NCBI RefSeq assembly: GCF_009914755.1
Contig: NC_060931.1
Source of the DNA: the human T2T-CHM13v2.0 reference genome, Homo sapiens
DNA length: 64,000 bases
Reading direction: 5' to 3' (one strand)
The notes under the pieces: model-generated
Databases searched by the model: none
Told to the model about the DNA's origin: nothing
Seen by the model: only the letters and a program-made list of their open reading frames with translations
In this document: positions 1-36,823 of the stretch, one piece after another
Layout of the letters: each line of letters begins with the position of its first letter
Numbering within the stretch: the stretch's first letter is position 1
Made by a program: the position numbers and the translations under genes

Positions 1-1097
1 ATTTACCTAGTAAAGGAGCCTGATTTAACTTTATTAAATATACTAAATTTGCTTGACCTCAGAACTATGATCCCCTCTGCATTATATACACACACACTGC
101 ACTACACTTCTATGAGAAATTCTTGGTAGTGTAGATGGTGCTGTGTAATGGACAAGGGCTTAGGACAAAGGGCTCCATGGTACAAGAACCAGGTGTTGAA
201 CCCCAGTAAGACAATACCTGGGTTCTGAGCAGAGAGAGGGCAATGAAACCATCCCAACAACTCTCTCTTCCCTGACTGGGATAGGGCACCTCTTCTGCCA
301 GATGCTGGATGGGGTGTGGAATGAAACTGATTCTTCACAAGAACAGAATTAGAATGGATTTGAGAATATTTTAATAAGTATCTCATGTGAAGCACTTGGC
401 TTTCTTAAAAGACACAGCTAATGAGCTTTATTCTCTACATGAAAAGCAGAAAGGAATTTAGTAACCAAATGAAAGAGTTCCCAGAGGTGCACTCGGAACA
501 GCCCCTTAACAAGGATCTGTCCTCCATGGAATAGCCCGTTTGCCGCCTTCTCCCAGGGTCCCAGGCATGCTGCTAAACATGTGGCTCAGAAAGGAGCCCA
601 CGCTGGTGTCTGGGAGGCAGTAGGACCGCAAAGAAATTCATACACAACACACTTGACCTGTAAAATTGCCATTTCCATTTAAAGTGAGCTCTACACCCAG
701 CTAGATGAGCAGCTGGTCTAAGTTGTCACCATTTTTTAACTCTTGTGCCCACTTGCCACCAATCTGTCATTCCTGTTTGACGACACCAGTCATCTGCATG
801 GCAGCTGGCAGATGCTAAAGACTAGCAGGAAGACCTCAGGACTGTGGGCCACCTGTCAGGGGAGTGAGGGGGCTGTCAGCTGACACTTCTCCCCCTTATC
901 TAACAGTGCTGGGGCCAAGGACTGGAATGCAGGTTTGACCATCAGCTGATGTTTCCTGTAAACATAAAGATGAAATGGTTGCCTTTTGAGACTTTCGTAA
1001 TGCAGAGACTTAAGCTGCAAGCGTGGGTGGAGAGGTTTGTTTTATAGTCTTGAACAAGGTTTCTGCTGACTTCTGTGTCTGTCTGGTTTCTTTGCAG

Positions 1098-4882: not shown

Positions 4883-5282
4883 TGATATGGTTTGGATTTG
4901 TGTCCCCACCCAAATCTCACGACAAATTGTAATCCTCAATATTGGAGGTGGGGCCTGGTGCTGGTGATTGGATCTTGGGGGCAGATTTTTCCCTTTGGTG
5001 GTGTTTTCGTGATAGTGAATTCTCATGAGATCTGGTTGTTTAAAAGTGTGTGGCACCTCCCCGCTCTCTCTTCCTCCTGCTCCAGCCATGAGAAGTACTT
5101 TCTGGCTCCCCCTTCACCTTTCACCATGATTGTAAGTTTCCTGTGGCCTCCCCAGAAGCCAAGCAGAAGCCACTATGCTTCCTGTACAGCCTGCAGAACT
5201 GTGAGCCAATTAAACCTCTTTTCTTTATAAATTACCTAGTGCCAGGTATTTCATTATGGCAATGGGAGAATGGACAAATACA
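4883..5282 (+). mobile_element. MaLR solo LTR (MST-like)
   Basis: tgatatggtttgg...caattaaacctcttttctttataaattacc...aataca. Confidence 0.87.
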
Positions 5283-5342
5283 CTTCTTTTATCAGTACTT
5301 ACCAGCATCAAAATTATTATGGCTTTATAAAAGAATTGAGAA

Positions 5343-5646
5343 GACCAGCCTCTGTGGCTTATACTGGTAATCCCAGCACTTTGAGAGGCTGAAGCAGGAG
5401 AATTTCTTGAGCCCAGGAGTTTGAGATCAGCCTGGGCAAGAATAGTAAGGCTACAAAATAAAACATAAAACATTCAAAAATTTTAGCTGGGTGTGGTGAT
5501 GTGCACCTATAGTCCCAGCTACTTGGGAGGCTGAGGTGGGACAAGTTCCTTGAGCCCAGGCATTGGAGGCTGCAGTGTACTGTGATTGCACCATTGTACT
5601 CCAGCCTGGGTGACAGAGGGAGACTCAGTCTCTAAAAATGTTTTTA
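5343..5646 (+). mobile_element. Alu (AluJ-like)
   Basis: Diverged Alu dimer flanked by the TSD aaaagaattgagaag. Confidence 0.9.
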
Positions 5647-5772: not shown

Positions 5773-8120
5773 ACTTTTTTTAATTTTTAATTTTTGTGGG
5801 TACATAGGTGTATATGTTTATGGGGTACATGAGATGTTTGATACAGGCATGTGCTGCATAGTAATCATGGAAAATGGGGTATCCATCCCCTCAGGTATTT
5901 ATCCTTTGTGTTACAAAAAATCAAATTATACTTTTTTAGTTGTTAGTTATTTTTAAATGTACAATTAAGTTATTATTGACTACAGTAGTCACCCTGTTGT
6001 GCTATCAAGTAGGTTTATCCATTCTTTCTATTTTTTTTTATCCATTTACCATCTCCACCTTCTCCCTCAAACCCCCACTACCCTTCCCAGCCTCTGGTAA
6101 CCATCCTTTTACTCTGTATGTCCGTGAGTTCAATTGTTTTCATTTTTACATCCCACAAATAAGTGAGAACACGTGATGTTTGTCTTTCTGTGTCTGGCTT
6201 ATTTCACTTAACATTAATGGCCCCAGTTCCATCCATGTTGTTGCAAATGACGGAATCTCATTCAATTTTATGGCTGAATAGTACTTTATCATGTATAAGT
6301 AACACATTTTCTTTATTCATTCATCTGTTTATAGACACGTAGGTTGCTTCTAAATCTTAGCTATTTTGAACAGTGCTGCAATAAACATGAGAGTGCAGAT
6401 ATCTCTTTGATATACTGAGTTCCTTTCTTTTGGGTATATACCCAGCAATGGGATTGTTAGTTTATATCGTAGCTCTATTTTAAGATTTTTGAGGAACCTC
6501 CAAATGGTTATCCTTAGTGGTCATTCTAATTTACATTCCCACCAACAGTGTACAAGGGTCCCCTTTTCTCCACATCCTCACCAGCATTTGTTGTTGGCTG
6601 TCTTTTGGATATAAGCCATTTTAACTGGGGTGAGATGATATCTCATTGTAGTTTGGACTTGCATTTCTCTAATGATCAGTGATGTTGAGCACCTTTTCAT
6701 ATGCCTGCTTGCAATTTGTATGTCTTCTTTTCAGAAATGTCTATTCAAATCTTTTGCCCATTTTCTGATCAGATTATTAGATTTTTTTCCTATAGAGCTG
6801 TTTGAGCTTTTTATATATTCTGGTTATTAATCTCTTGTCAGATGGGTAGTTTGCAAATACTTTTCCTATTCTGTGGGTTGTCTCTTCCTTTTGTTGATTG
6901 TTTTCTTTGCTGTGCAGAAGCTTTTTAACTTGACGTGATTCCATTTGTCCATTTTTGCTTTGGTTACCTGTGCTTGTGGGGTATTGCTGAAGAAATATTT
7001 GCCCAGACCAATGTCCTAGAGACTTTCTCCAACGTTTTCTTGTAGTAGTTTCATAGTTTGAAGTCTTAGATTTAAGTCTTTAATCCATTTTGATTGGATT
7101 TTTCTATATGGCAAGAGATAGGGGTCAAGTTTCATTTTTCTGCATATGGATATCTAATGTTCCCAGCGCCATTTATTGAAGAGACTGTCTTTTCCCCAGT
7201 GTATGTTCTTGGCACCTTTGTTGAAAATGAGTTCACTCTAGGTGTATAAATTTGTTTCTGGGTTCTCTATTCTGTTCCATTGGTCTATGTGTCTGTTTTT
7301 ATGCCGGTACCATGCTGTTTTGGTTACTATAGCTCTGCAGTATCATTTGAAGTCAGGTAATGTGATTCCTTTAGTTTTGTTCTTTTTGCTTAGGATAGCC
7401 TTGGCTATTCTGGGTCTTTTGTGGTTCCATATAAATTTTAGGATGTTTTTTCTATGTCTGTGAAGAATGTCATTGATATTCTGATAGGGTTTGCATTGAA
7501 TCCATAGATTGCTTTGGGTAGTATGGACATTTTAACAATATTGATTCTTCTAATCCATGAACATGGAATATCTTTCCATTTTTGATGTGCTTTTCAATTT
7601 CTTTCATTGGTATTTTATAGTTTTCATTATAGAGAGCTTTGACTTCTTTGGTTAATTCCTAGGAATTTATTATAATTTTATTTCTGCCTACTGTAAGTGG
7701 GATTACTTTTCTGAATTCTTTTTTACATTGTTCACTGTTGGCATATAGAAATGCTACTTATTTTTGTATGCTTATATTGTATCCTGCAACTTTACTGAAT
7801 TTGTTTATCAGTTCTGCTTTTTTGGTGGAGTCTTTAGGTTTTTCCAAACATAAGATCGTATCATTTGCAAACAAAGATAATTTGACTTCTTTCTTTCCAA
7901 TTTTGGATGCCCTTCATTTCTTTGTTTGATTGCTCTAGCTAGGCCTTCCAGTACTATGTTGAATAACAGTGGTGAAAGTGGGCATCCTCATCATGTTCCA
8001 GATCTTAGAGGAAGGGCTTTCAGTTTTTCCCCATTCAGTATGATACTATCTATGGGTCTTTTGTATATGGCTATTATGTTAAGGTATTTCTCTTCTATAT
8101 CCAGTTTTTTGAGGGTTTAA
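5773..8120 (-). mobile_element. L1 (L1MA-like), 5'-truncated: 3'UTR and ORF2 3' part
   Basis: T-rich antisense L1 motifs (ttccatccatgttgttgcaaatgac, cattcccaccaacagtgtacaaggg, ttgaataacagtggtgaaagtgggcatcc). Confidence 0.9.
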
Positions 8121-10862
8121 CGGTTGGTTTTCGAGCATTTTTTTTTTACTGTCTTCTGTGGTGATCAGTGTATGCAAATTTTTCACTTCTTTTTGTGTTC
8201 AGTTGATTGTATACTTATATAGGAAATAATGCATTCAAATGTGTTGAATGCATTATTCACAGAGACAGGGGTTCATAATTTATATATTTAATTTCATCTG
8301 TATTTCTAGTTATTCTTCTTTTCTCATTTCTAATTTTCTATAATTTTGCTCTTTTCTCCTTTTAATCAGCCTCACAAGATTTATCTATTTTGTTCTTTCA
8401 AAGAAACAAGTTCTTTATTTACTAATTACTTCAACCATTCTTTTTGCCATATATTTTATTTTTCAGCTTTCATCTATGTATTTATTCTTCCTAGTTGCTC
8501 TTTTTTAATAAGAATTATAATTTTTCTAATTTCCTTAAGTGAATAATTGGTTCATTTTTATTTTATTTCTCAAAGGCAGGTTCTTAAACCAATCAATTCT
8601 TCTCCGAGTGTAGCTTTCTTGTCTTGTACATTTTGCTATTAAAGTGTTCTCCTTGTCATTCTTTTATAGAAATTTAGAAATTTCTGTTTTGGCTTCTTTT
8701 TGTTTAGGAGTGACCACTTTTGGACATTTAATAGTAATTGGTTCTCCAATTATTGACTTCAGTGAGTTTATTTTTGATGTAATTCTGCAATATCTAATGA
8801 AAACATCAAAGGTATTCAGCTGCCTGCCCCTAAGTGCAGTAAACCCTGATACATCACATCCAGGCATTACTTCTACATTTCTGTCAGTATTTCTATAATT
8901 ATTTTTTTTAATTACACCTTTTTTCCATGTGAAACTTTAAGGGCAAGTTAAAGTATTTAAAACATGTTCGTGTTCCTTCCACTGTTCTTCTCCTGGTTCC
9001 TCTCCTTCTTGTCCTATGACCATGCACTTCATCAAGCTGAAACAAATCTGTGTGCTGGGTCACCGGAGAGCTGAGTAAACACAGGAACGTAGTACCCCAA
9101 GTAAGCGCTGAAAATGAGGGACATGCGGTGCCTCTAAGATGTTCACATCACCTATTTGGCTTCTGTTCTGCAGTAGTGACAGCTCTAGTTGGCTGTAGTA
9201 GGAACTGAAATTTTAAAAGGGGAAGGGGGTGTGGAGGTGTAAACCAGCGTTTGAAGGAACTCATCTTGCAGTTCTGGATGTTGAGGATCTGGGATAACAG
9301 ACTGAGCAGACAGGAACTGGCCAAAATGGAAATGTTCAAGCAGAGGCAGCTTGGCCCTCTATCAAGAAAATTCTGGAGAGCCACAGAGGCTGGAGGAATA
9401 GGAGAACTTCAGGTAATCTCTATATCTCCTTACAGCAATATCTATAATTCTTTAGCAGGAGCAAAGAAGACAGGAAGGAAGTTTTCTTCCCCTCCTTCTC
9501 CAGCTTGTCTCTGGTTCTATTCAGCTTAAGTCAATTTCACAGTCCCATTTATCCTCGGCTTGTGCGTGACCAACCTTAGGAAGAAAATCTTTGGAACTGA
9601 AAACCTCAACTGGCCATTGTAAAAGGGCAAGCAAGCCTCAAGATGGTGTATGTTTGTTCAGGGAAGGGGGCATAGGCTACAATTTTAGGAAGTGTGCAAG
9701 GAATATATATATATATAGTTTTAATGTTCTTTAAAACCACCTCCTTCCTGTTATGAGCCCCATCCCCTCAAGCCAGCAGGGAATGTCACGTGAGTCCTGA
9801 ACAGGATGCTCTCCACCTCCAGAGCGGATGTGCCTTCAGACACCTGTATCCTAGGTGTCTCTGACAGCATAGCATCATCCAGGCCCACAGCATCCCTGAA
9901 GTCCTCAGCTTTCTGCTTCTGCAGCATGCTCAGGCCACAGGACCCCCGGGCCCCCCATGCCAGGCTCCCCATGTGTGTCCCCTGCTGCCTCTTCTGAGGT
10001 CTGGATGCCACTTGCAGGCCCACAGACCACCCCGTTATGCCTCTCACCTCTCCAGCCTGCCTCCTGGACACCCTGGGCCGTCTCGGCAGTGGGGGCCATC
10101 CCCCCAGCCCCCCACCTCCGACAGCCACAAGCTTTTCCAGGCTGCTTCTGTTTTTCTCCTCGACAACTCTCTGGGATAAAGAGCTCCAAACTCCAAAATC
10201 CCACTTGAAATGGCAAAAAGAAGGATGCAAGGAGAAAATATGAATTAATATCTCACAAATACTATGCCCTACAAACCAGACAACCTCCTTCATATCTAGT
10301 GCAAATTAGATTCCTTTTTTCACTCATTCCCTCATTCAACTGAAATGTATTGAGGGCCTCTTGCATGTCAGGTCGATGGCCAGGTCCTCCCAGCTGAACC
10401 CTCAGTGTAATACTTTCCCACCGGGCGTCACTTGTACCTGTCCTTGTCTCTCTCCCGCTCTACTCCTCTGGACCACAGGGGATTTGAGTTCCACGTTGTG
10501 ACATTCATCTTCACTCCCTCATGATCTAGAACTAGACATTCTCTATTCTAGAATATAATACAATAAATATTGGCAGGAAGGCAGGACAGACTAGATCCTA
10601 AGAGAAGGAAAGATGGCAGCACTCGACCAGAAGGGAGCATCGTTCTACAGAAGTCCAGGGAGAAATAATGTTAAAATGAAATGAAATGTATTCTATTCCT
10701 GGAACATCAGCTTAATGAGTGAGGAACCTTTGTGCAAACTTTGCCAATAAGGTTTTATCTGGGAGATATTTTTTCTTCTTATTCCACACTACCCAAATGA
10801 CAATTGTTAATGTTTATTGTGTCTATCCATATATCAATACTGTACAAGGTACTCAATCTGCT

Positions 10863-10962: not shown

Positions 10963-11299
10963 GGCTCACAAGCTAGAGACCCAGGAAAGCTGAAGGACTG
11001 AGAACATGGGGAGCCAATGATGTTCACCCCAGTTCAAGGGCAGGAGAACATGAGATGGGATGTCTGAGTTCACGGGCAGGAAAGAAGGGACGAATTCCTC
11101 TGTGCTCTGCCTTTTGCTCCATTCAGGCCCTCAGTGAACAGGATGATGGCCACCCCCATGAGGGAAGGCAGCCTACTGAGTCCACCTATCCAGATGCCAA
11201 TCTCACCTGGAAACAGCCCCCACAGACATGCTCAAAAACAGTGCTTAATCTGGGCAACCAGTGGCCCATTCAAATTGACACATAAAATTAACCATCACA
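10863..11299 (-). mobile_element. ERVL LTR (MLT2-like) containing a (CA)n microsatellite
   Basis: ttagggttctccagagaaacag...ttgacacataaaattaaccatcaca. Confidence 0.8.
10908..10957. repeat. (CA)~25 microsatellite
   Basis: Directly visible. Confidence 0.98.
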
Positions 11300-14200
11300 T
11301 GTGTGTAACTGTTTTAATCCTTCAAACCACTCTGTAAAGTTGCTACTAATGCTATCATCCCCCCTGAACAAGCAGTGAGTCCAGGAGGTGGGCATGAGCC
11401 CGTGAGGTCCTGGGCCCTGGCCACTTTGCAGGATTGCTGAGGGATGTCACACACCTGTCTCCACTCCCTACCTACCCAGTCTCTTTAGCTGGAAGCAGAT
11501 TACTCCTTGGCGGATCTTCAACCTCTGGGAAAGTGCGCCAGGGAACACTGCCCCTCAAATGCCCCAGAAAGGTGCAGAGCTGAACAGATCTCAAAAGACA
11601 AGATGGACATTTTTCTTCATGTTCCAGCCATGTGTATTGTTCCAGGAGATCAGGAACTAATTTTCCTAGATTAGATGGTTTAAGCATAAAAACAAGTGTA
11701 ATGCTGTGGACTCAAAACAGGAAGAGGCTCCCCTAATGAATATAGACCAGGGTTCCCACAATGGGTTTTGAGAAACGTTAGTCCAGAGAAATGCCTTTTG
11801 AGTGATGCACTGCAAACTTTACCATTCTCTTGGAAAATCCCCATCTCAAAGACCCTGAAAAATCTCATAATAAAGAATCCTGTTTAACCTAGCACTTCTC
11901 CTCCCAATTAGATCATGGGGCATTCTCTCCTTTTATAAAGAAGACTTTTAACATCTCACAGCATTCATTTTGGAAAACAGGACTAGACCAATGCTGACCA
12001 AAAGAAGGGTTCCACATACAAGATGTGTAGTGTGGTCATTCTGAGTGTCTCATCCATCCTGACCAGGTGGGGACCTGCCAGACAGAATTCCGAGAGGAAT
12101 CCCTGGCTGCATCCAACAGCGAAGCGTGGCTGTGCTTCCTGATTGGGCATCGTGTGCTCTGCGCCCACTCCCTACCTGCTTAGAAGGCCCCTTGGTGCTG
12201 GGTTTGAATGTGGGCCATGGACCCCCAGGAAGGCCCTGGGGCCTTCTAACCGCCCATGGACACCTACGCAGAAGAACAAAGTGGAGAAATTAAGGACTGG
12301 GGCAGCTGTCATAATTCATGTGTTCTGTTCTCTCTCCAGACATCCAAGAAAAAGCCAGTGACTGTTCCTGAGGGCGCCTGTTAAGAGCTGGCTTTTTGGC
12401 TGTGGTGACCAGTCAGTCACGACCACTCTTCCGAGAGCAACACCAAGTGGAAACCCCGCCAAGTGGGCTTTTCAGGAACCCTCTCACCACCCAAGGCCTT
12501 TGGATCTTATATCTAACAAATTACATGTTACATTATTTTTTAAAAAACAGGTTAGTGACAACTAAGATAGTCTCTCCAGAATTAGAGTCTGATGTCAGAT
12601 TCAGAAAATCCCCCGTTCCTTGGGAATTCCCATGTCACTCATTCTGCATTAATGATATTTATTCTCTCTCATTGTTTTATTCTTAAAAAATAGCTCCCCT
12701 GGTTGCAATGTGATGTTAAGTATATTACATGTCAGTTCATATATTACAGCTCGCACCACTCCTGGGTATATGTTTCCAAATAGCTCTCACTCCACAGTTC
12801 CAGTTCCACATTAAATATGGGCTGCCATGAGTGGAGCCCGAAAGGGTTGTCTGTTCCATTCCCGCTTCTTGTTTTCCCTGGAAGTATTTTCCCCTCCTAT
12901 TTTATACTCCTCAGGGAAGATGTGCCCTCCAGTAAGAAAAGTCTACCTGGGGAAGGTAGAATGTGTTCTTGCTCTAGAGTTTCTTGAGGGGAGGTGAGAA
13001 GGGGCAGCTGTTTGACAGAGTGCATGCAGCCTTCCAGGGGCTGGCACTGGTTTGGCACATGAGTGGACACCCTGACTAGGGGATGTGGGATGCCAGAAAC
13101 CATCAAGATCCTTGGAAAAAAGCCAAAATATCCTTCCTTCTGCAACATGAACATCAAAATGAGTTTTTGTCTTCTGTGGCTATCATGCTCTTGACCATCT
13201 GTGTTGTAGGGTCATTAACAGACAGTTTCAGGGATTCCGTGGGAGGTCATCCTTTTAGTTACTTCAACAGAATCAACCATGACAACCTAGTTTTATTTCC
13301 ATTTGCTGCAGGATCCAAGCATAAGGCTCTCATGAGCCACCAGCTTCTTTGTTTCATTCATTCATTCAATTAACATATATTATGCATTGGGTTTCATCCA
13401 GTTCCTCAGTGATCAAGAAAAAAACCCAATGTTCTCATCATGCTTGTGGCCTGTGGCAAGGTCCACAGTCCTTGGGACAAAGTCCTCATGTGCCGTCTCC
13501 AGATACAGTCTTCACATGGCAGATGCCAGGCAGCGCCAATAACACTTTCCTCTGGTGCGGCTCTTCTAAGTAGTAAACAAGCAGAAATAGACAGCCTGTA
13601 TGTCATACCCAAGGGGGCTTGTGAAATGATTCTCAGTGGGCCCCAAAGGCTCTCAAAAGGTGAATGAGTCAAGAGCCACTTTCCTCCTGTGCAACTTTGC
13701 CAGTTCTGATTTCCCCCTCATACTTTCTCTCAGATTATCTTAGCCATTGCCCAACACGATGTGACGAGCCCCAGGCACCTCTCTTTTTTAAGATAAGGGG
13801 GAATCTTCAGAGGAAAAGTGACTGCAACAGGGCCAGGGCACAAGGGTCTCTGGAGCCCACTGCTGTCTCCCTTGGCTGCAAAGCTGAAGGCCTGAGACCC
13901 TTGACAAATGAGAATCAGATTGTGTCCAAAATACATCTCAGCCTCTTGGGGCTGTCTGTAGCCATATAAGGAGCTGGTCAAGAGCTATTTATCAGAAAAG
14001 TTCTTGAGGGCAAAGAGAACCTACAGGGCACTTCAATTAGCTGAGCAGTCCCCAGCTCTGATGTGCCTGCAGCTGTCACCAGGAAGGGGTATCAACTATT
14101 CAAATGGCACTGTTATTGCGCTTTCATATGCAAGGGCTACAAAGTGCCCCCCTTCCCTTCATCAACTCCTTTGAACATCTTTGCCCATATTTGCCTAGGA

Positions 14201-15404: not shown

Positions 15405-15716
<312 letters not shown>

Positions 15717-33500: not shown

Positions 33501-34314
33501 CAGTGTCTCAGCAATATGTTTTGTTATAGATTTATTTTGTTAATTCTACCTGGTAGTTATGCTTCTTGAAACAGGTTTTATATATTTCATCCATTCTGGA
33601 AAACAGTCATTTTCCCCATTTTCTCTCTCTTTCTGGAACTTCTAGTATAAGTATATGAGGAACCTTTTCATTCAATCTTTCATGTCTCTTAATCCCTTTT
33701 GTATTTTTTCTTTATATCTTGGACAACATTCTGGGTAATTTCTTTAAATCTATCTCTTACCTACTTCATTAACTTTTTCTTTAGCTGAATCTATTTTTTT
33801 CTGATCAGCAGAAAAACATCCACTGAGTTTTTTTAAAAAGACCTATTTAATCAACATCAAGATCAGACTCTTATAGTGATCAACAATATGCATACAAAAA
33901 TAAGTATATTATAAAACTTTTGTTGTAATGCTTCATACTTTCCACAGGAAAAAAACTAAAATTTCTGTTATATAGTTAGTCACAAGAACTATCTTTATGG
34001 ATTTTTGCTCATAGGAGTATGTTCTAAAGCATCTCTTTTTGTAGGATGTAGATCCTGCCACCGCAGTTGGCTGAGTTAATAAACTTGTTGTAACCTGTAG
34101 CTTTCCTGTTATTTTTCAGGCTTTCCTCTTTTGCTAAGCACTTTTTTTTGGCAGTAATTAAAATCTTCTGCCACTGCTATAGCTTCTCCTGATGCTAATA
34201 CAACCATAACCACCTTGGTTTTGTGGTTTGGCAAAGTATTGGCTCTCCCAGTATAAGAACCGGAGCTTCTGCTCCATGATCTCCTTCCTTTATGGGTCCA
34301 GAATTTGAAGATTA

Positions 34315-34545
<231 letters not shown>

Positions 34546-34729
34546 TTACAATCTCTTGCTTAGCCAGGGATTTCCCTACTTCACAGTTATGGCCATTCAT
34601 AGTATGTTGTTTCCGAATGACAATCTTATCCATGAACTTATGGTCACCAAAGTTTACAGAAGCAAAGACTCTCCTCATCACTGCCCCAGTCTGTAATGAT
34701 TTCACTTCAGTCAATCTTCCTATACTGCT

Positions 34730-34849
34730 ATGTATTATCTGTTATGAGAACGATAGATGCAGTTGCCTGTGTAAGGAAATATTTAGTGGCTGCTTCTGTA
34801 GAGCGGGGTTTTTTTTTTGTTTTTTTTTTAATGAAGATTGGGATAAGGG
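34730..34849 (-). pseudogene. NUMT piece 1: MT-ND2 5' fragment
   Basis: Reverse complement ccccgctctacagaagcagccactaaatatttccttacacaggcaactgcatct encodes ND2 'PRSTEAATKYFLTQATAS'. Confidence 0.9.
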
Positions 34850-34867
34850 GATGGAATTTAGGCTTAG

Positions 34868-35183
34868 CCTATAATTACATTAATTTTATTGTCCCTAGGA
34901 GGTTTACCTCCATTAACAGGATTTCTGCCTAAATGAGTCATCATTCAAGAACTTACAAAAAACAACAGTCTTATTTCCCCAACCATTATAGCTATTATAA
35001 CCCTACTCAACCTATACTTTTACATATGCTTAATTTACTCTGGCTCAGTGACAATATTCCCCACATCCAATAACATAAAAATAAAATGACAGTTTGAAAA
35101 CACAAAGCCCACATTATTCCTCCTCCCACTTATCTCTTCTACCTTCCTTTTACCCATTTCCCCATTAACACTATCTATGATCT
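34868..35183 (+). pseudogene. NUMT piece 2: MT-ND2 3' end
   Basis: tccctaggaggtttacctccattaacaggatttctgcctaaatga encodes 'SLGGLPPLTGFLPKW' in the mitochondrial code; also ataaaatgacagtttgaa. Confidence 0.92.
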
Positions 35184-35222
35184 AGAAATTTAGGTTAAAC
35201 AAGACCAATGGCCTTCAAAGCC
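35184..35222 (+). pseudogene. NUMT: truncated mt-tRNA-Trp (5' half, anticodon TCA at 35215-35217)
   Basis: agaaatttaggttaaacaagaccaatggccttcaaagcc follows ND2 directly, as in mtDNA gene order. The T-arm and 3' acceptor strand are missing. Confidence 0.88.
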
Positions 35223-35226
35223 ATTG

Positions 35227-35737
35227 AACATCACCCGTCCAATGAATCCCCTCCCCCATGAAAAAAGTTTTATGTTTCTATGTTAATTATCCCACAGATT
35301 TCTTAAATTATAGCATTCACAGACACAGAACTAATCATATTTTATATTCTCTTTGAAGCTACACTTATCCCTACACTAATCTTTATTATCTGCTGAAGTA
35401 ACCAACCAGAACACCTCAATGCAAGCTCGTATTTCCTATTTTATACACTAGTAGGGTCTCTCCCCTTATTATACTTATTTATACCCAAAATACCTTAGGT
35501 TCACTAAATATAATAACGACATTCAGTACCCAGGAACTACTAGTCTCCTGATCCAACAATCTCATATGATTAGCATGTATCATAGCTTTTATAGTAAAAA
35601 TACCCCTATATGGACTTCACCTATGACTCCCTGAGGCTTATGTAGAAGAAACCCCCATTGCTGGCTCAATAGTACTTGCAGCAGTGCTCCTAAAATTAGG
35701 TGGTCATGGTATAATACAGCTCACCCTCACCCTTAGC
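35227..35737 (+). pseudogene. NUMT piece 3: internal MT-ND4 fragment
   Basis: acagaactaatcatattttatattctctttgaa (TELIMFYILFE); cccctatatggacttcacctatgactccct (PLYGLHLWLP); attgctggctcaatagtacttgcagcagtgctcctaaaattaggtgg ([15 protein letters not shown]). Confidence 0.93.
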
Positions 35738-35872
35738 ATTGACTTAATGGGCAGAATATTATGCTTTGTTGTTTGGACTTATGTAGTACAGGAATAACTG
35801 CTAGAATGAGAAGAGCGAATAGAAGGGCCAGTATAACTCCTAGTTTATTAGGAATGGATTGTAAGATTGTAT
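35738..35872 (-). pseudogene. NUMT piece 4: MT-CYB fragment
   Basis: Reverse complement tccattcctaataaactagga...tccaaacaacaaagcataatattctgcccattaagtcaa encodes cytochrome b 'SIPNKLG...SKQQSMMF.PLSQ'. Confidence 0.9.
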
Positions 35873-36349
35873 AATCTTCCTATACTGCTCAAAATAATCT
35901 CTTACATGTTGTTCTTCAATGTCTTCCTTAATGCCACAAAGATCTTTTTCATAGGTAACTGGGCACCTGGTCTTTGGTAAAATTTTTAAAAAATATCCCT
36001 CTTTGATTTCACAACTCTTCCACCACCTTGTGTGGACTTCCATTCATGACTGAATCTGCTTGCACCATGGTGGCATATATGACAAACCTAAAGATTCTGG
36101 AGTGCTTAGTGTGTGCGTCTTTCATTACCACACAATCTGTGTGCATTTCCCATTACTGAAAATGGCTCTTCCATCTCTTATGATTATTTTAATGAAGAGC
36201 TTCTGCAGTTCTTTGGGCTCTTTGGGACACTGACTAAGACATGACTGCAACAGGAGGAGACTTTAACTGTGTTTCCTCTGTTGTGGCCACAGGCAGAAAA
36301 TCACAGAGTTTTTCATATCAGTGGTTATATTTTTAATTTCTGGGTAATT

Positions 36350-36777
36350 CCTTCCTTCCCTCCCTCCCTCCCTCCCTCCCTTCCTTCCCTCCCTCCCTCC
36401 CTTCCTTCCCTCCCTCCCTCCCTTCCTTCCTTCCCTCCCTCCTTCCTTCCCTCCCTCCCTCCTCCCTCTCTCCTGCCTCCCTCCCTTTTTTTTTTCAAGG
36501 TCTTGCTCTGTCATCCAGGCTGGAGTGTAGTAGTGCAAACATAGCTCACTGCGACCTTGACCTCCGGGGCTCAAGCAATCCTTCTGCCTCAGCCCCCTCA
36601 AGGAACTGGTACTACAGGTGCATGCCAAAACACCTGGCTGATTTGTGTACTTTTTTTAATAGAAATGGGGTTTCGCTGTGTTGCCCAGGTTGGTCTTGAA
36701 CTCTTGAGCTCAAGCAATTTGCCTGTCTCAACTTCCCAAAGTTCTGGGATTATAGGCGTGAGCCACCACACCTGGCC
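36350..36777 (-). mobile_element. AluJ-like element with a (CCCT/CCTT)n tract expanded from its tail
   Basis: Polypyrimidine tract 36350-36485 fused to the Alu T-tail; TSD-like ctgggt on both sides. Confidence 0.88.
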
Positions 36778-36823
36778 CTGGGTGTTCTCTTTCAAACATC
36801 TTTTAGCTTAATCTTTTTTCTTT

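What the first reader, a model, noticed from the sequence alone, without database searches (positions are those of the whole stretch)
34730..35872. Mosaic NUMT stitched from four non-contiguous mtDNA fragments in mixed orientation
Seen: one 1143-bp insert reads ND2 5' part (-), ~18 bp unassigned filler, ND2 3' end + half tRNA-Trp (+), internal ND4 (+), CYTB (-), with no recognisable nuclear DNA between the pieces. Known: ND2, ND4 and CYTB lie kilobases apart and on the same strand in mtDNA. Inference: shattered mtDNA was ligated into a concatemer and captured in a single repair event. Annotation would normally list these as separate pseudogenes and miss the single-event architecture.
Basis: partly seen in the sequence, partly recalled or inferred. 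Interest (0 to 1): 0.8.

Follow-up and report, generated by a model that had tools for sequence, protein, structure and literature searches.

The report
Four-piece mitochondrial DNA insert, one event
A 1.1-kb patch made of four scrambled bits of mitochondrial DNA was pasted in one go into an old dead gene copy near WNT2, leaving a 17-base duplication of the target; this is a tidy example of a known process rather than a new one.

Summary
Window 34730-35872 (1143 bp) holds four mitochondrial pieces: ND2 codons ~40-71 (-), ND2 codon 242 to the stop plus the first 42 nt of tRNA-Trp (+), ND4 codons ~83-251 (+), and CYTB codons 278-323 (-). A 19-nt filler is the only sizeable unassigned stretch.

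New here: the insert is bounded by a perfect 17-bp direct repeat (34713-34729 and 35873-35889). That repeat is single-copy in seven HNRNPA1 paralogues, so it is a true target-site duplication. The host is an old HNRNPA1-like processed pseudogene.

One target duplication, abutting pieces, and blunt or 1-2-nt junctions fit a single capture of several mtDNA fragments at a staggered break. All four pieces also branch at the same internode of a tree of human NUMTs.

No other locus in the T2T nuclear genome shares a junction. Published catalogues list three of the pieces as separate NUMTs, with similar identity to human mtDNA (74-76%). A macaque catalogue has the same three in the same order, orientation and spacing. 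The inverted ND2 5' piece appears in no catalogue I saw.

Multi-fragment NUMTs and short target duplications at NUMTs are already described. This is a clean new member of a known kind; interest is low to moderate.

The parts
34713..34729 (.). Left copy of the 17-bp target-site duplication (AATCTTCCTATACTGCT), part of the host HNRNPA1-like pseudogene
   Evidence: Perfect direct repeat with 35873-35889. Both copies map to one 17-bp stretch in the HNRNPA1 paralogues.
34730..34735 (.). 6 nt at the left junction not assignable to mtDNA or to the target
   Evidence: Homology to collinear NUMTs starts at 34736.
34736..34849 (-). Piece A: ND2 5' part, about codons 37-72, inverted. It contains an expanded T run (34808-34828) at the site of a native A-rich run. 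It is absent from RefSeq and from the two NUMT catalogues I read.
   Evidence: ND2 residues 40-71, E 1.2e-7. 24 non-self genomic NUMT hits cover at most query 7-120. Alignment; stand-in map.
34850..34868 (.). 19-nt filler of unknown origin between pieces A and B
   Evidence: No hit crosses it. Likeness to the ND2 continuation is not above chance, P 0.37-0.76. No above-chance match in the stand-in, the insert or the local window.
34869..35225 (+). Piece B: ND2 3' end (codon 242 to the stop, open frame) plus the first 42 nt of tRNA-Trp from 35184. Corresponds to MTND2P37 / HSA_NumtS_281.
   Evidence: E 2.6e-39. Genomic hits end at 35225. tRNA-Trp mapped through ARAGORN on the stand-ins. mt 5198-5552 in the Tsuji table.
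35227..35737 (+). Piece C: internal ND4, about codons 83-251, with one in-frame stop and one frameshift. Corresponds to MTND4P6 / HSA_NumtS_282.
   Evidence: E 6.4e-21 and 7.7e-36. Genomic hits start at 35227-35232 and end at 35737. mt 11029-11505.
35736..35872 (-). Piece D: cytochrome b codons 278-323, inverted. Overlaps piece C by 2 nt (GC microhomology). Corresponds to MTCYBP6 / HSA_NumtS_283.
   Evidence: E 2.5e-15. Hits start at query 61 = window 35736. Also. mt 15577-15714.
35873..35889 (.). Right copy of the 17-bp target-site duplication
34161..36235 (-). Host: old HNRNPA1-like processed pseudogene (LOC100421782), interrupted inside the remnant of its second RNA-binding domain
   Evidence: Flanks are 72-78% identical to other HNRNPA1 copies. 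The translated left flank matches HNRNPA1 residues 138-191, E 5e-16. No Pfam hit at E 0.01.

Best explanation
This is a composite NUMT formed in one double-strand-break repair event. A staggered break opened an already decayed HNRNPA1-like processed pseudogene, with nicks 17 nt apart on the two strands. Four unrelated fragments of mitochondrial DNA were joined end to end by non-homologous end joining, two of them inverted. Those fragments are roughly mt 4.58-4.69 kb, 5.19-5.55 kb, 11.0-11.5 kb and 15.58-15.71 kb. The joints are blunt or carry 1-2 nt of microhomology, and two carry short fillers of 6 and 19 nt. Fill-in of the two single-stranded overhangs produced the 17-bp target-site duplication. 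The source was DNA, not processed RNA.

The event predates the human-macaque split and lies on the primate lineage. The insert has since decayed neutrally and has no function.

Shown: the pieces, their orientation, the junctions, the duplication, the uniqueness of the junctions in this genome, and the common branching position.

Inferred: the staggered break, the end-joining pathway, the DNA source and the date.
For: Piece identities and their map onto a collinear NUMT.

Target-site duplication. The 17-bp repeat is perfect. In 7 HNRNPA1 paralogues the left flank ends, and the right flank starts, on the same 17 bases, which occur once there. Both window copies share the same differences from the paralogues.

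Junctions. Homology to other NUMTs stops exactly at each joint. No non-self hit crosses a joint: 0 of 21, 0 of 23, 0 of 16. None of the 39 non-self hits of the whole-insert search crosses one either (40 of 123 candidates were scored).

Same age.
- In four separate trees the window piece sits between NUMT group Y (C9:5.1, C4:158.8 and others) and group O (C7:57.4, C7:65.3, C2:130.7/131.8).
- Supports for the two flanking splits are A 96/96 and 88/82, B 97 and 96, C 98 and 83, D 85/91 and 83/91.
- Normalised distances are 0.80, 0.83 and 0.82 for A, B and D.
- RHNumtS.2 identities to rCRS are 75.22, 76.36 and 74.26% (supplement).

Date.
- The macaque catalogue lists Rhm_Numts_113/114/115 with the same order, orientation and spacing (supplement).
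- Tsuji et al. class the ND2 and ND4 pieces as 'after mouse, before rhesus' (supplement and methods passages).
- Pieces B and D are 90.5% and 91.7% identical to larger independent NUMTs. This caps their nuclear decay at under about 9%.

DNA source. Piece B runs across the ND2/tRNA-Trp processing site and stops inside the tRNA. There is no poly(A) at either end of the insert.

Precedent.
- Target duplications of 1-11 nt were seen at 17 of 71 primate NUMT insertions and explained by cohesive breaks (Hazkani-Covo & Covo 2008, passages).
- Simultaneous integration of several mtDNA fragments has been described (passages).
Against: After normalisation the ND4 piece is about a quarter more diverged than the other three (1.02 and 1.11 against 0.79-0.88). 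Its end branch is also long (0.15). This is about two standard errors by my rough estimate, and the reference sets differ between pieces.

Tsuji et al. put the CYTB piece in class 'o' (before the mouse split) and the other two in 'a'.

Pieces A and D are short (105 and 135 aligned columns), so their tree positions are weakly resolved, and D has no starred branch.

The trees use human NUMTs only. No mtDNA of any species was at hand, because chrM is not in the genome held.

Orthology of the macaque entries rests on architecture and on a recalled synteny, not on aligned flanks. Piece A and the duplication were not checked in any other species.

A 17-nt stagger is longer than the 1-11 nt reported for NUMTs.
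Confidence: 0.85

Rival explanations
1. Post-insertion scrambling. A single long collinear NUMT spanning ND2 to CYTB (about 11 kb) was inserted and was later cut down by three deletions and two inversions to the present 1.1 kb.
For: The four pieces lie in ascending mitochondrial order along the insert. A single target duplication fits this reading as well.
Against: It needs at least five independent rearrangements. Each would have to leave a clean blunt or 2-nt joint, with nothing left of the 0.5, 5.5 and 4 kb removed. By my reckoning, ascending or descending order on a circle is expected by chance in about 1 of 3 four-piece concatemers. The macaque already has the same three-piece layout, so all the rearrangements would have to be old.
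Confidence: 0.05
2. Several independent NUMT insertions hit the same spot at different times (nested insertions), so the pieces differ in age.
For: Tsuji et al. give the CYTB piece a different age class ('o') from the other two ('a'). The ND4 piece is relatively more diverged.
Against: There is only one target duplication, and it lies at the outer ends. There is no nuclear DNA between the pieces. Later insertions would have had to land exactly on the earlier junctions. Piece D is 91.7% identical to an independent NUMT, which does not fit an insertion before the primate-rodent split. All four pieces branch at the same internode. Their identities to rCRS are nearly equal.
Confidence: 0.03
3. RNA-mediated origin. 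L1 reverse transcriptase copied mitochondrial transcripts of both strands with template switches at an L1-endonuclease nick, and the 17-bp duplication is the usual retrotransposition footprint.
For: 17 bp is in the usual size range of L1 target duplications (recalled). Both mtDNA strands are fully transcribed (established knowledge), so mixed orientation is possible. Tsuji et al. speculate that L1 endonuclease is involved in NUMT insertion (passages).
Against: Neither end of the insert has a poly(A) tail. The only T run (34808-34828) is internal and aligns to a native A-rich run of ND2. Piece B crosses the ND2/tRNA-Trp processing site and ends inside the tRNA. The bases at the two nick positions are not TTTT/AA; the nearest is TTTTG/A on the lower strand at the right border (read).
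Confidence: 0.03
4. Secondary copy. The composite arose elsewhere and reached this site by segmental duplication or capture of nuclear NUMT DNA.
For: Many human NUMTs are spread by duplication (passages). Piece B groups with the NUMT at C8:112.06 Mb (support 95).
Against: No other locus in the T2T nuclear genome crosses any of the three internal joints. The C8 and C13 relatives are larger collinear NUMTs that run past the piece ends. Tsuji et al. mark all three entries 'unique'. The target duplication marks a primary insertion here.
Confidence: 0.02

Closest known systems
HSA_NumtS_281, _282, _283 (RHNumtS.2) = MTND2P37, MTND4P6, MTCYBP6 (RefSeq/HGNC) = three rows of the Tsuji et al. 2012 hg18 table
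   Same: These are the same DNA. They cover mt 5216-5550 (+), 11047-11503 (+) and 15577-15712 (-), at 75.2, 76.4 and 74.3% identity to rCRS.
   Different: The catalogues treat them as three separate NUMTs, because the RHNumtS merging rule needs the same direction and under 2 kb on the mtDNA. One table gives them two age classes. None lists the inverted ND2 5' piece, the filler or the target duplication.
Complex or concatenated NUMTs: several mtDNA fragments integrated together
   Same: Non-collinear fragments in both orientations sit at one nuclear site. This is explained by simultaneous capture during break repair. Three such cases among 30 yeast numts and other examples are cited in Hazkani-Covo & Martin 2017. 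Concatenated NUMTs are also described in Wei et al. 2022 and in a 2026 pangenome preprint.
   Different: This one is small (1.1 kb), old and fixed, unlike the recent or polymorphic 'mega-NUMTs'. It also has all of its junctions and its target duplication still readable.
NUMT insertions with short target duplications at cohesive breaks (Hazkani-Covo & Covo 2008)
   Same: A duplication of the chromosomal target flanks the NUMT. It is attributed to fill-in of overhangs of a staggered break bridged by mtDNA. They saw it in 17 of 71 events.
   Different: Their duplications were 1-11 nt; this one is 17 nt. Their cases were human- or chimpanzee-specific, whereas this one is older than the macaque split.
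L1-endonuclease-dependent insertions (LINE-1, Alu, processed pseudogenes)
   Same: Target-site duplication of similar length. Tsuji et al. speculated that L1-endonuclease nicks seed NUMT insertions.
   Different: There is no poly(A), no TTTT/AA at the nick sites, and the content does not follow RNA processing boundaries.

Membership tests
NUMT (nuclear copy of mitochondrial DNA) | Sequence homologous to mitochondrial genes, readable under the mitochondrial code | tested here: met
   ND2, ND4 and cytochrome b matches at E 1e-7 to 3e-39. tRNA-Trp 5' part.
NUMT (nuclear copy of mitochondrial DNA) | Embedded in nuclear chromosomal DNA | tested here: met
   Both flanks belong to one HNRNPA1-like pseudogene on chromosome 7.
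Single-event composite (concatenated) NUMT | Two or more fragments that are not neighbours, or not co-oriented, in mtDNA | tested here: met
   Four fragments at stand-in positions 1.3, 1.9, 7.7 and 12.3 kb, two of them inverted. mt coordinates are given.
Single-event composite (concatenated) NUMT | Fragments abut without nuclear DNA between them | tested here: met
   Gaps are 19 nt (unassigned filler), 0-1 nt, and a 2-nt overlap.
Single-event composite (concatenated) NUMT | One pair of target junctions for the whole insert | tested here: met
   One perfect 17-bp duplication at the outer ends, single-copy in the paralogues.
Single-event composite (concatenated) NUMT | All fragments of the same age | tested here: inconclusive
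   All four branch at the same internode, and identity to rCRS is similar. However, the ND4 piece is relatively more diverged, pieces A and D are short, and no real mtDNAs were available.
Single-event composite (concatenated) NUMT | All-or-none presence in other species | tested here: inconclusive
   The macaque catalogue lists three pieces together. Piece A, the flanks and any empty site were not seen, and no primate genome is held.
L1-mediated retrocopy (target-primed reverse transcription) | Target-site duplication of roughly 7-20 bp (size range recalled) | tested here: met
   17 bp.
L1-mediated retrocopy (target-primed reverse transcription) | Poly(A) tail at one end of the insert | tested here: not met
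   None at either end. The internal T run aligns to a native ND2 A-rich run.
L1-mediated retrocopy (target-primed reverse transcription) | Endonuclease site of type TTTT/AA at the first nick (motif recalled; also named) | tested here: not met
   The borders read GTC/AATC on the upper strand and TTTTG/AGCA on the lower strand.
L1-mediated retrocopy (target-primed reverse transcription) | Content corresponds to processed transcripts | tested here: not met
   Piece B spans the end of ND2 and 42 of 69 nt of tRNA-Trp. The other pieces are internal gene fragments.

The most novel reading that the evidence does not exclude
The 17-bp duplication may be the footprint of two retrotransposon-endonuclease-type nicks. 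It is longer than any reported for a NUMT in the 71-event survey I read. Free mtDNA fragments would then have been captured at an aborted L1 integration site. That would give a sequence-level example for the so far circumstantial idea that L1 endonuclease seeds NUMT insertions in primates.
Probability: 0.12. Interest if true: 0.45.

Novelty: new member of a known kind. Interest (0 to 1): 0.22.

Why it matters
The finding corrects the book-keeping at one locus. What RefSeq and two NUMT catalogues count as three NUMTs of two age classes is one insertion event with a fourth, unlisted piece. This matters for counts and dating of NUMT insertions, a point already made in general by Hazkani-Covo & Martin 2017.

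It also offers an unusually legible old example of break repair with filler DNA. All five junctions and a 17-nt stagger are preserved. That extends the 1-11 nt range of overhangs inferred from NUMTs and bears on how far apart two nicks can be and still make a break.

It has no bearing on WNT2 or ST7 function that I could see.

Tried and rejected
- ARAGORN in bacterial mode and in mammalian mitochondrial mode finds no tRNA in the insert. This is expected for a truncated tRNA; I placed it through the stand-ins instead.

- The frame 35205-35303 gave no ND4 match in the solved-structure search, so the start of piece C rests on DNA matches only.

- I suspected that the 19-nt filler was copied from the start of tRNA-Trp. 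Its 12 of 19 match there is at chance level (42 of 60 shuffles do as well). It is also not a decayed continuation of ND2, although MAFFT aligns it that way.

- Pfam finds nothing in three translated host stretches at E 0.01. The host identity comes from DNA paralogues and the solved-structure match.

- Searching papers for the three pseudogene symbols found 2 papers holding at least one of them. The one paper listed is an unrelated stroke network study. I therefore found no paper that discusses this locus by name.

- I found no paper tying NUMTs to long target duplications. This rests on searches; I read passages of two of the papers listed. 'target site' does not occur in Tsuji 2012 or Wei 2022.

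- The 2017 mammalian NumtS paper has no marmoset data, so I have no older bound than the macaque.

- The chimpanzee table was searched only for exact mt start values and gave no relevant row. I did not pursue it.
Full report
**What is there**

The stretch 34730-35872 (1143 bp) lies inside an annotated HNRNPA1-like processed pseudogene on the minus strand. I read it under the vertebrate mitochondrial code and compared it with solved mammalian respiratory-chain structures. It falls into four pieces.

- Piece A (minus strand, 34731-34868) matches ND2 residues 40-71, E 1.2e-7.
- Piece B (plus strand, 34868-35182) matches ND2 residues 242-345, E 2.6e-39. It has an unbroken frame of 105 codons up to the stop.
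- Piece C (plus strand) matches ND4 residues 108-163 (E 6.4e-21) and 161-251 (E 7.7e-36). These lie in two frames, so there is one frameshift.
- Piece D (minus strand, 35736-35879) matches cytochrome b residues 278-322, E 2.5e-15.

The genome held for this window is the human T2T assembly without its mitochondrial chromosome (24 contigs). I therefore used long collinear NUMTs from elsewhere in the genome as stand-ins for mtDNA. On the one at C7:57.43 Mb the pieces map as follows.

| Piece | Window | Stand-in position | Orientation |
|---|---|---|---|
| A | 34742-34849 | 1417-1319 | inverted |
| B | 34869-35230 | 1923-2284 | direct |
| C | 35232-35737 | 7733-8242 | direct |
| D | 35738-35869 | 12396-12264 | inverted |

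The pieces are therefore 0.5, 5.5 and 4 kb apart in the mitochondrial genome. Pieces A and D are inverted relative to B and C.

ARAGORN in mammalian mitochondrial mode finds tRNA-Trp directly after ND2 in 3 of 3 stand-ins and none in the window. Carried over through the alignment, window 35184-35225 is the first 42 of 69 nt of tRNA-Trp.

**The junctions**

Homology to other NUMTs stops sharply at each joint.

- The first 6 nt of the insert (34730-34735) are unassigned.
- Between A and B lie 19 nt (34850-34868). Their likeness to the expected continuation of ND2 is no better than that of shuffled sequence (P 0.37-0.76 for 5 of 5 stand-ins). They also have no above-chance match in the stand-in, in the insert or in 10 kb of local sequence.
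- B and C are 0-1 nt apart.
- C and D share 2 nt (GC). This is also why the RefSeq spans of MTND4P6 and MTCYBP6 overlap by 2 nt.
- D ends at the last base before the repeat, or one base into it.

This mix of blunt joints, 1-2 nt of microhomology and short fillers is what end joining leaves. Wei et al. 2022 report 51.9% microhomology, 27.6% blunt joints and 20.5% short insertions at NUMT breakpoints (passages).

**The target-site duplication**

The insert is bounded by a perfect 17-bp direct repeat, at 34713-34729 and 35873-35889.

I compared the flanks with eleven other HNRNPA1 copies in the genome, which are 73-79% identical. In these, the left flank ends and the right flank begins on the same 17 bases. 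Seven paralogues were printed, and each carries that stretch once.

Both window copies share the same differences from the paralogues. The duplication therefore arose after the pseudogene had already diverged. This is a true target-site duplication and it brackets all four pieces together.

The translated left flank matches HNRNPA1 residues 138-191 (E 5e-16). The break thus fell in the remnant of the second RNA-binding domain.

**One event or several**

- *Single target duplication.* There is one pair of target junctions and no nuclear DNA between the pieces.
- *Unique junctions.* Searches with 124-134-base probes centred on the three internal joints found 21, 23 and 16 non-self matches, and none crosses a joint. 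None of the 39 non-self hits of the whole-insert search crosses one either (40 of 123 candidates were scored).
- *Independent close relatives.* The closest relatives of piece B (C8:112.06 Mb, 90.5%) and piece D (C13:94.90 Mb, 91.7%) are larger collinear NUMTs. They continue past the piece ends. They are therefore independent insertions of similar age, not sources or copies.
- *Same branching position.* I built a separate maximum-likelihood tree for each piece with 12-13 other human NUMTs. In all four trees the window piece branches between the same two groups:
  - group Y: C9:5.1, C4:158.8, C9:90.9, C9:92.7, C8:33.3 and C7:143.1 for the ND2 pieces; C2:143.5, C16:10.75, C8:68.0, C4:158.8 and C9:5.1 for the ND4 and CYTB pieces;
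  - group O: C7:57.4, C7:65.3, C2:130.7, C2:131.8.
  
  Supports for the two flanking splits are A 96/96 and 88/82, B 97 and 96, C 98 and 83, D 85/91 and 83/91.
- *Normalised distances.* Distances from the window piece to group O, divided by the distance between the two groups, are 0.80 (A), 0.83 (B), 1.02 (C) and 0.82 (D).

**Results against the reading**

The ND4 piece is about a quarter more diverged than the others. I estimate this at roughly two standard errors, and the reference sets differ between pieces. I record it as a caveat and do not explain it away.

The trees for A and D rest on 105 and 135 columns, and the D tree has no starred branch.

**What is in print**

- *RHNumtS.2* (supplement) lists the locus as three separate NumtS. 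HSA_NumtS_281 covers mt 5216-5550 (+) at 75.22% identity to the human reference. HSA_NumtS_282 covers mt 11047-11503 (+) at 76.36%. HSA_NumtS_283 covers mt 15577-15712 (-) at 74.26%. Its merging rule requires the same direction and under 2 kb on the mtDNA (methods passage), so it could not merge them.
- *Tsuji et al. 2012* (supplement; methods passages) also list three rows, all marked 'unique'. The ND2 and ND4 pieces are in class 'a' (after the mouse split, before rhesus) and the CYTB piece is in class 'o' (before mouse). That last class fits poorly with my results: piece D is 91.7% identical to an independent NUMT and branches beside primate-lineage NUMTs. For a 135-bp piece I take it as noise.
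- *Piece A.* Neither table, nor RefSeq as given with the finding, lists the inverted ND2 5' piece.
- *Macaque.* The table of Calabrese et al. 2012 (supplement) lists three NumtS at chr3:154,594,307-154,595,279: Rhm_Numts_113 (mt 5168-5504, +), 114 (mt 11046-11500, +) and 115 (mt 15576-15695, -). The gaps between them are 55 and 15 bp, against 54 and 8 bp in human. The layout is the same, so the composite very probably predates the human-macaque split. I did not see the macaque flanks, piece A or the duplication. The synteny of macaque chromosome 3 with human 7q31 is recalled.

**Mechanism**

The best reading is capture of several mtDNA fragments at one staggered double-strand break, joined by non-homologous end joining. 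Fill-in of two 17-nt overhangs gave the duplication.

Hazkani-Covo & Covo 2008 (passages) found target duplications of 1-11 nt at 17 of 71 recent primate NUMT insertions and gave exactly this explanation. Seventeen nucleotides is beyond their range.

A retrotransposition origin is unlikely for three reasons.
- Neither end of the insert has a poly(A). The only T run (34808-34828) is internal and aligns with a native A-rich run of ND2, expanded by 9 nt.
- Piece B crosses the ND2/tRNA-Trp processing site and stops inside the tRNA.
- The nick sites read GTC/AATC and TTTTG/AGCA, not TTTT/AA.

L1 endonuclease might still have made the nicks without reverse transcription following, an idea Tsuji et al. 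raise in general (passages). This cannot be decided from one locus.

Later scrambling of a long collinear NUMT would need at least five clean rearrangements, all before the macaque split. Nested independent insertions would have had to land exactly on earlier joints.

**Date**

- The insertion is after the host pseudogene had diverged strongly from its relatives (73-79% identity to other copies).
- It is before the human-macaque split, and on the primate lineage according to Tsuji's class 'a'.
- The solved-structure searches agree: human chains score highest in 4 of 5 segments, and mouse scores slightly higher for the short piece A.
- The 8-9.5% divergence from contemporaneous NUMTs and the still perfect 17-mers both point, loosely, to tens of millions of years rather than a hundred.

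**Verdict**

The kind is known: multi-fragment NUMTs in mixed orientation, and simultaneous integration of several fragments, are described (passages).

New at this locus are the recognition that three catalogued NUMTs are one event, a fourth unlisted piece, and a 17-bp target duplication that is longer than those reported. I searched the papers library for the three pseudogene symbols and found no paper about the locus. Supplements of bioRxiv preprints were closed, so the T2T-based NUMT table of the 2026 preprint may already merge these pieces.

Noticed in passing
L002 (G000 C8:112,062,030-112,065,387) and L020 (G000 C13:94,898,462-94,901,593): Two larger collinear NUMTs are the closest relatives of pieces B (90.5%) and D (91.7%). 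They are much closer than any other NUMT, which reach about 86% at most. They may come from nearly the same mitochondrial lineage and time as the composite, hinting at a burst of insertions. L002 carries ND2 3', tRNA-Trp/Ala/Asn/Cys and more.
   Followed up: partly
window 34808-34828: A T10-G-T10 run inside piece A aligns to a shorter native A/T-rich run of ND2 in five other NUMTs. It is a 9-nt expansion and could be mistaken for a poly(A) tail on the minus strand.
   Followed up: yes
window 34161-36235: The host HNRNPA1-like pseudogene is only 72-79% identical to other HNRNPA1 copies, including the exon-by-exon matches at C12:54.25 Mb. It is therefore very old. Its RefSeq span silently includes the 1143-bp mitochondrial insert.
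   Followed up: partly
window 36321-36783: A long C/T-rich simple repeat (CCCT/CCTT units) starts about 450 bp to the right of the insert, just past the end of the pseudogene. GC skew there falls to -0.81.
   Followed up: no
Tsuji et al. 2012 supplementary table, rows for hg18 chr7:116,690,819-116,691,820: The published age classes for pieces of this one insert disagree ('a', 'a', 'o'). This shows that tree-based ages for NUMT pieces of about 135 bp can be off by a whole class.
   Followed up: partly
L041/L042, L048, L049, L050/L051 (C7:57.4 Mb, C7:65.3 Mb, C2:130.7 Mb, C2:131.8 Mb): These long NUMTs fall into two tight pairs in the ND2 3' tree, C7:57.4 with C7:65.3 and C2:130.7 with C2:131.8, and form a single clade in the ND2 5' and ND4 trees. 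They look like copies of one NUMT spread by segmental duplication on chromosomes 7 and 2.
   Followed up: no
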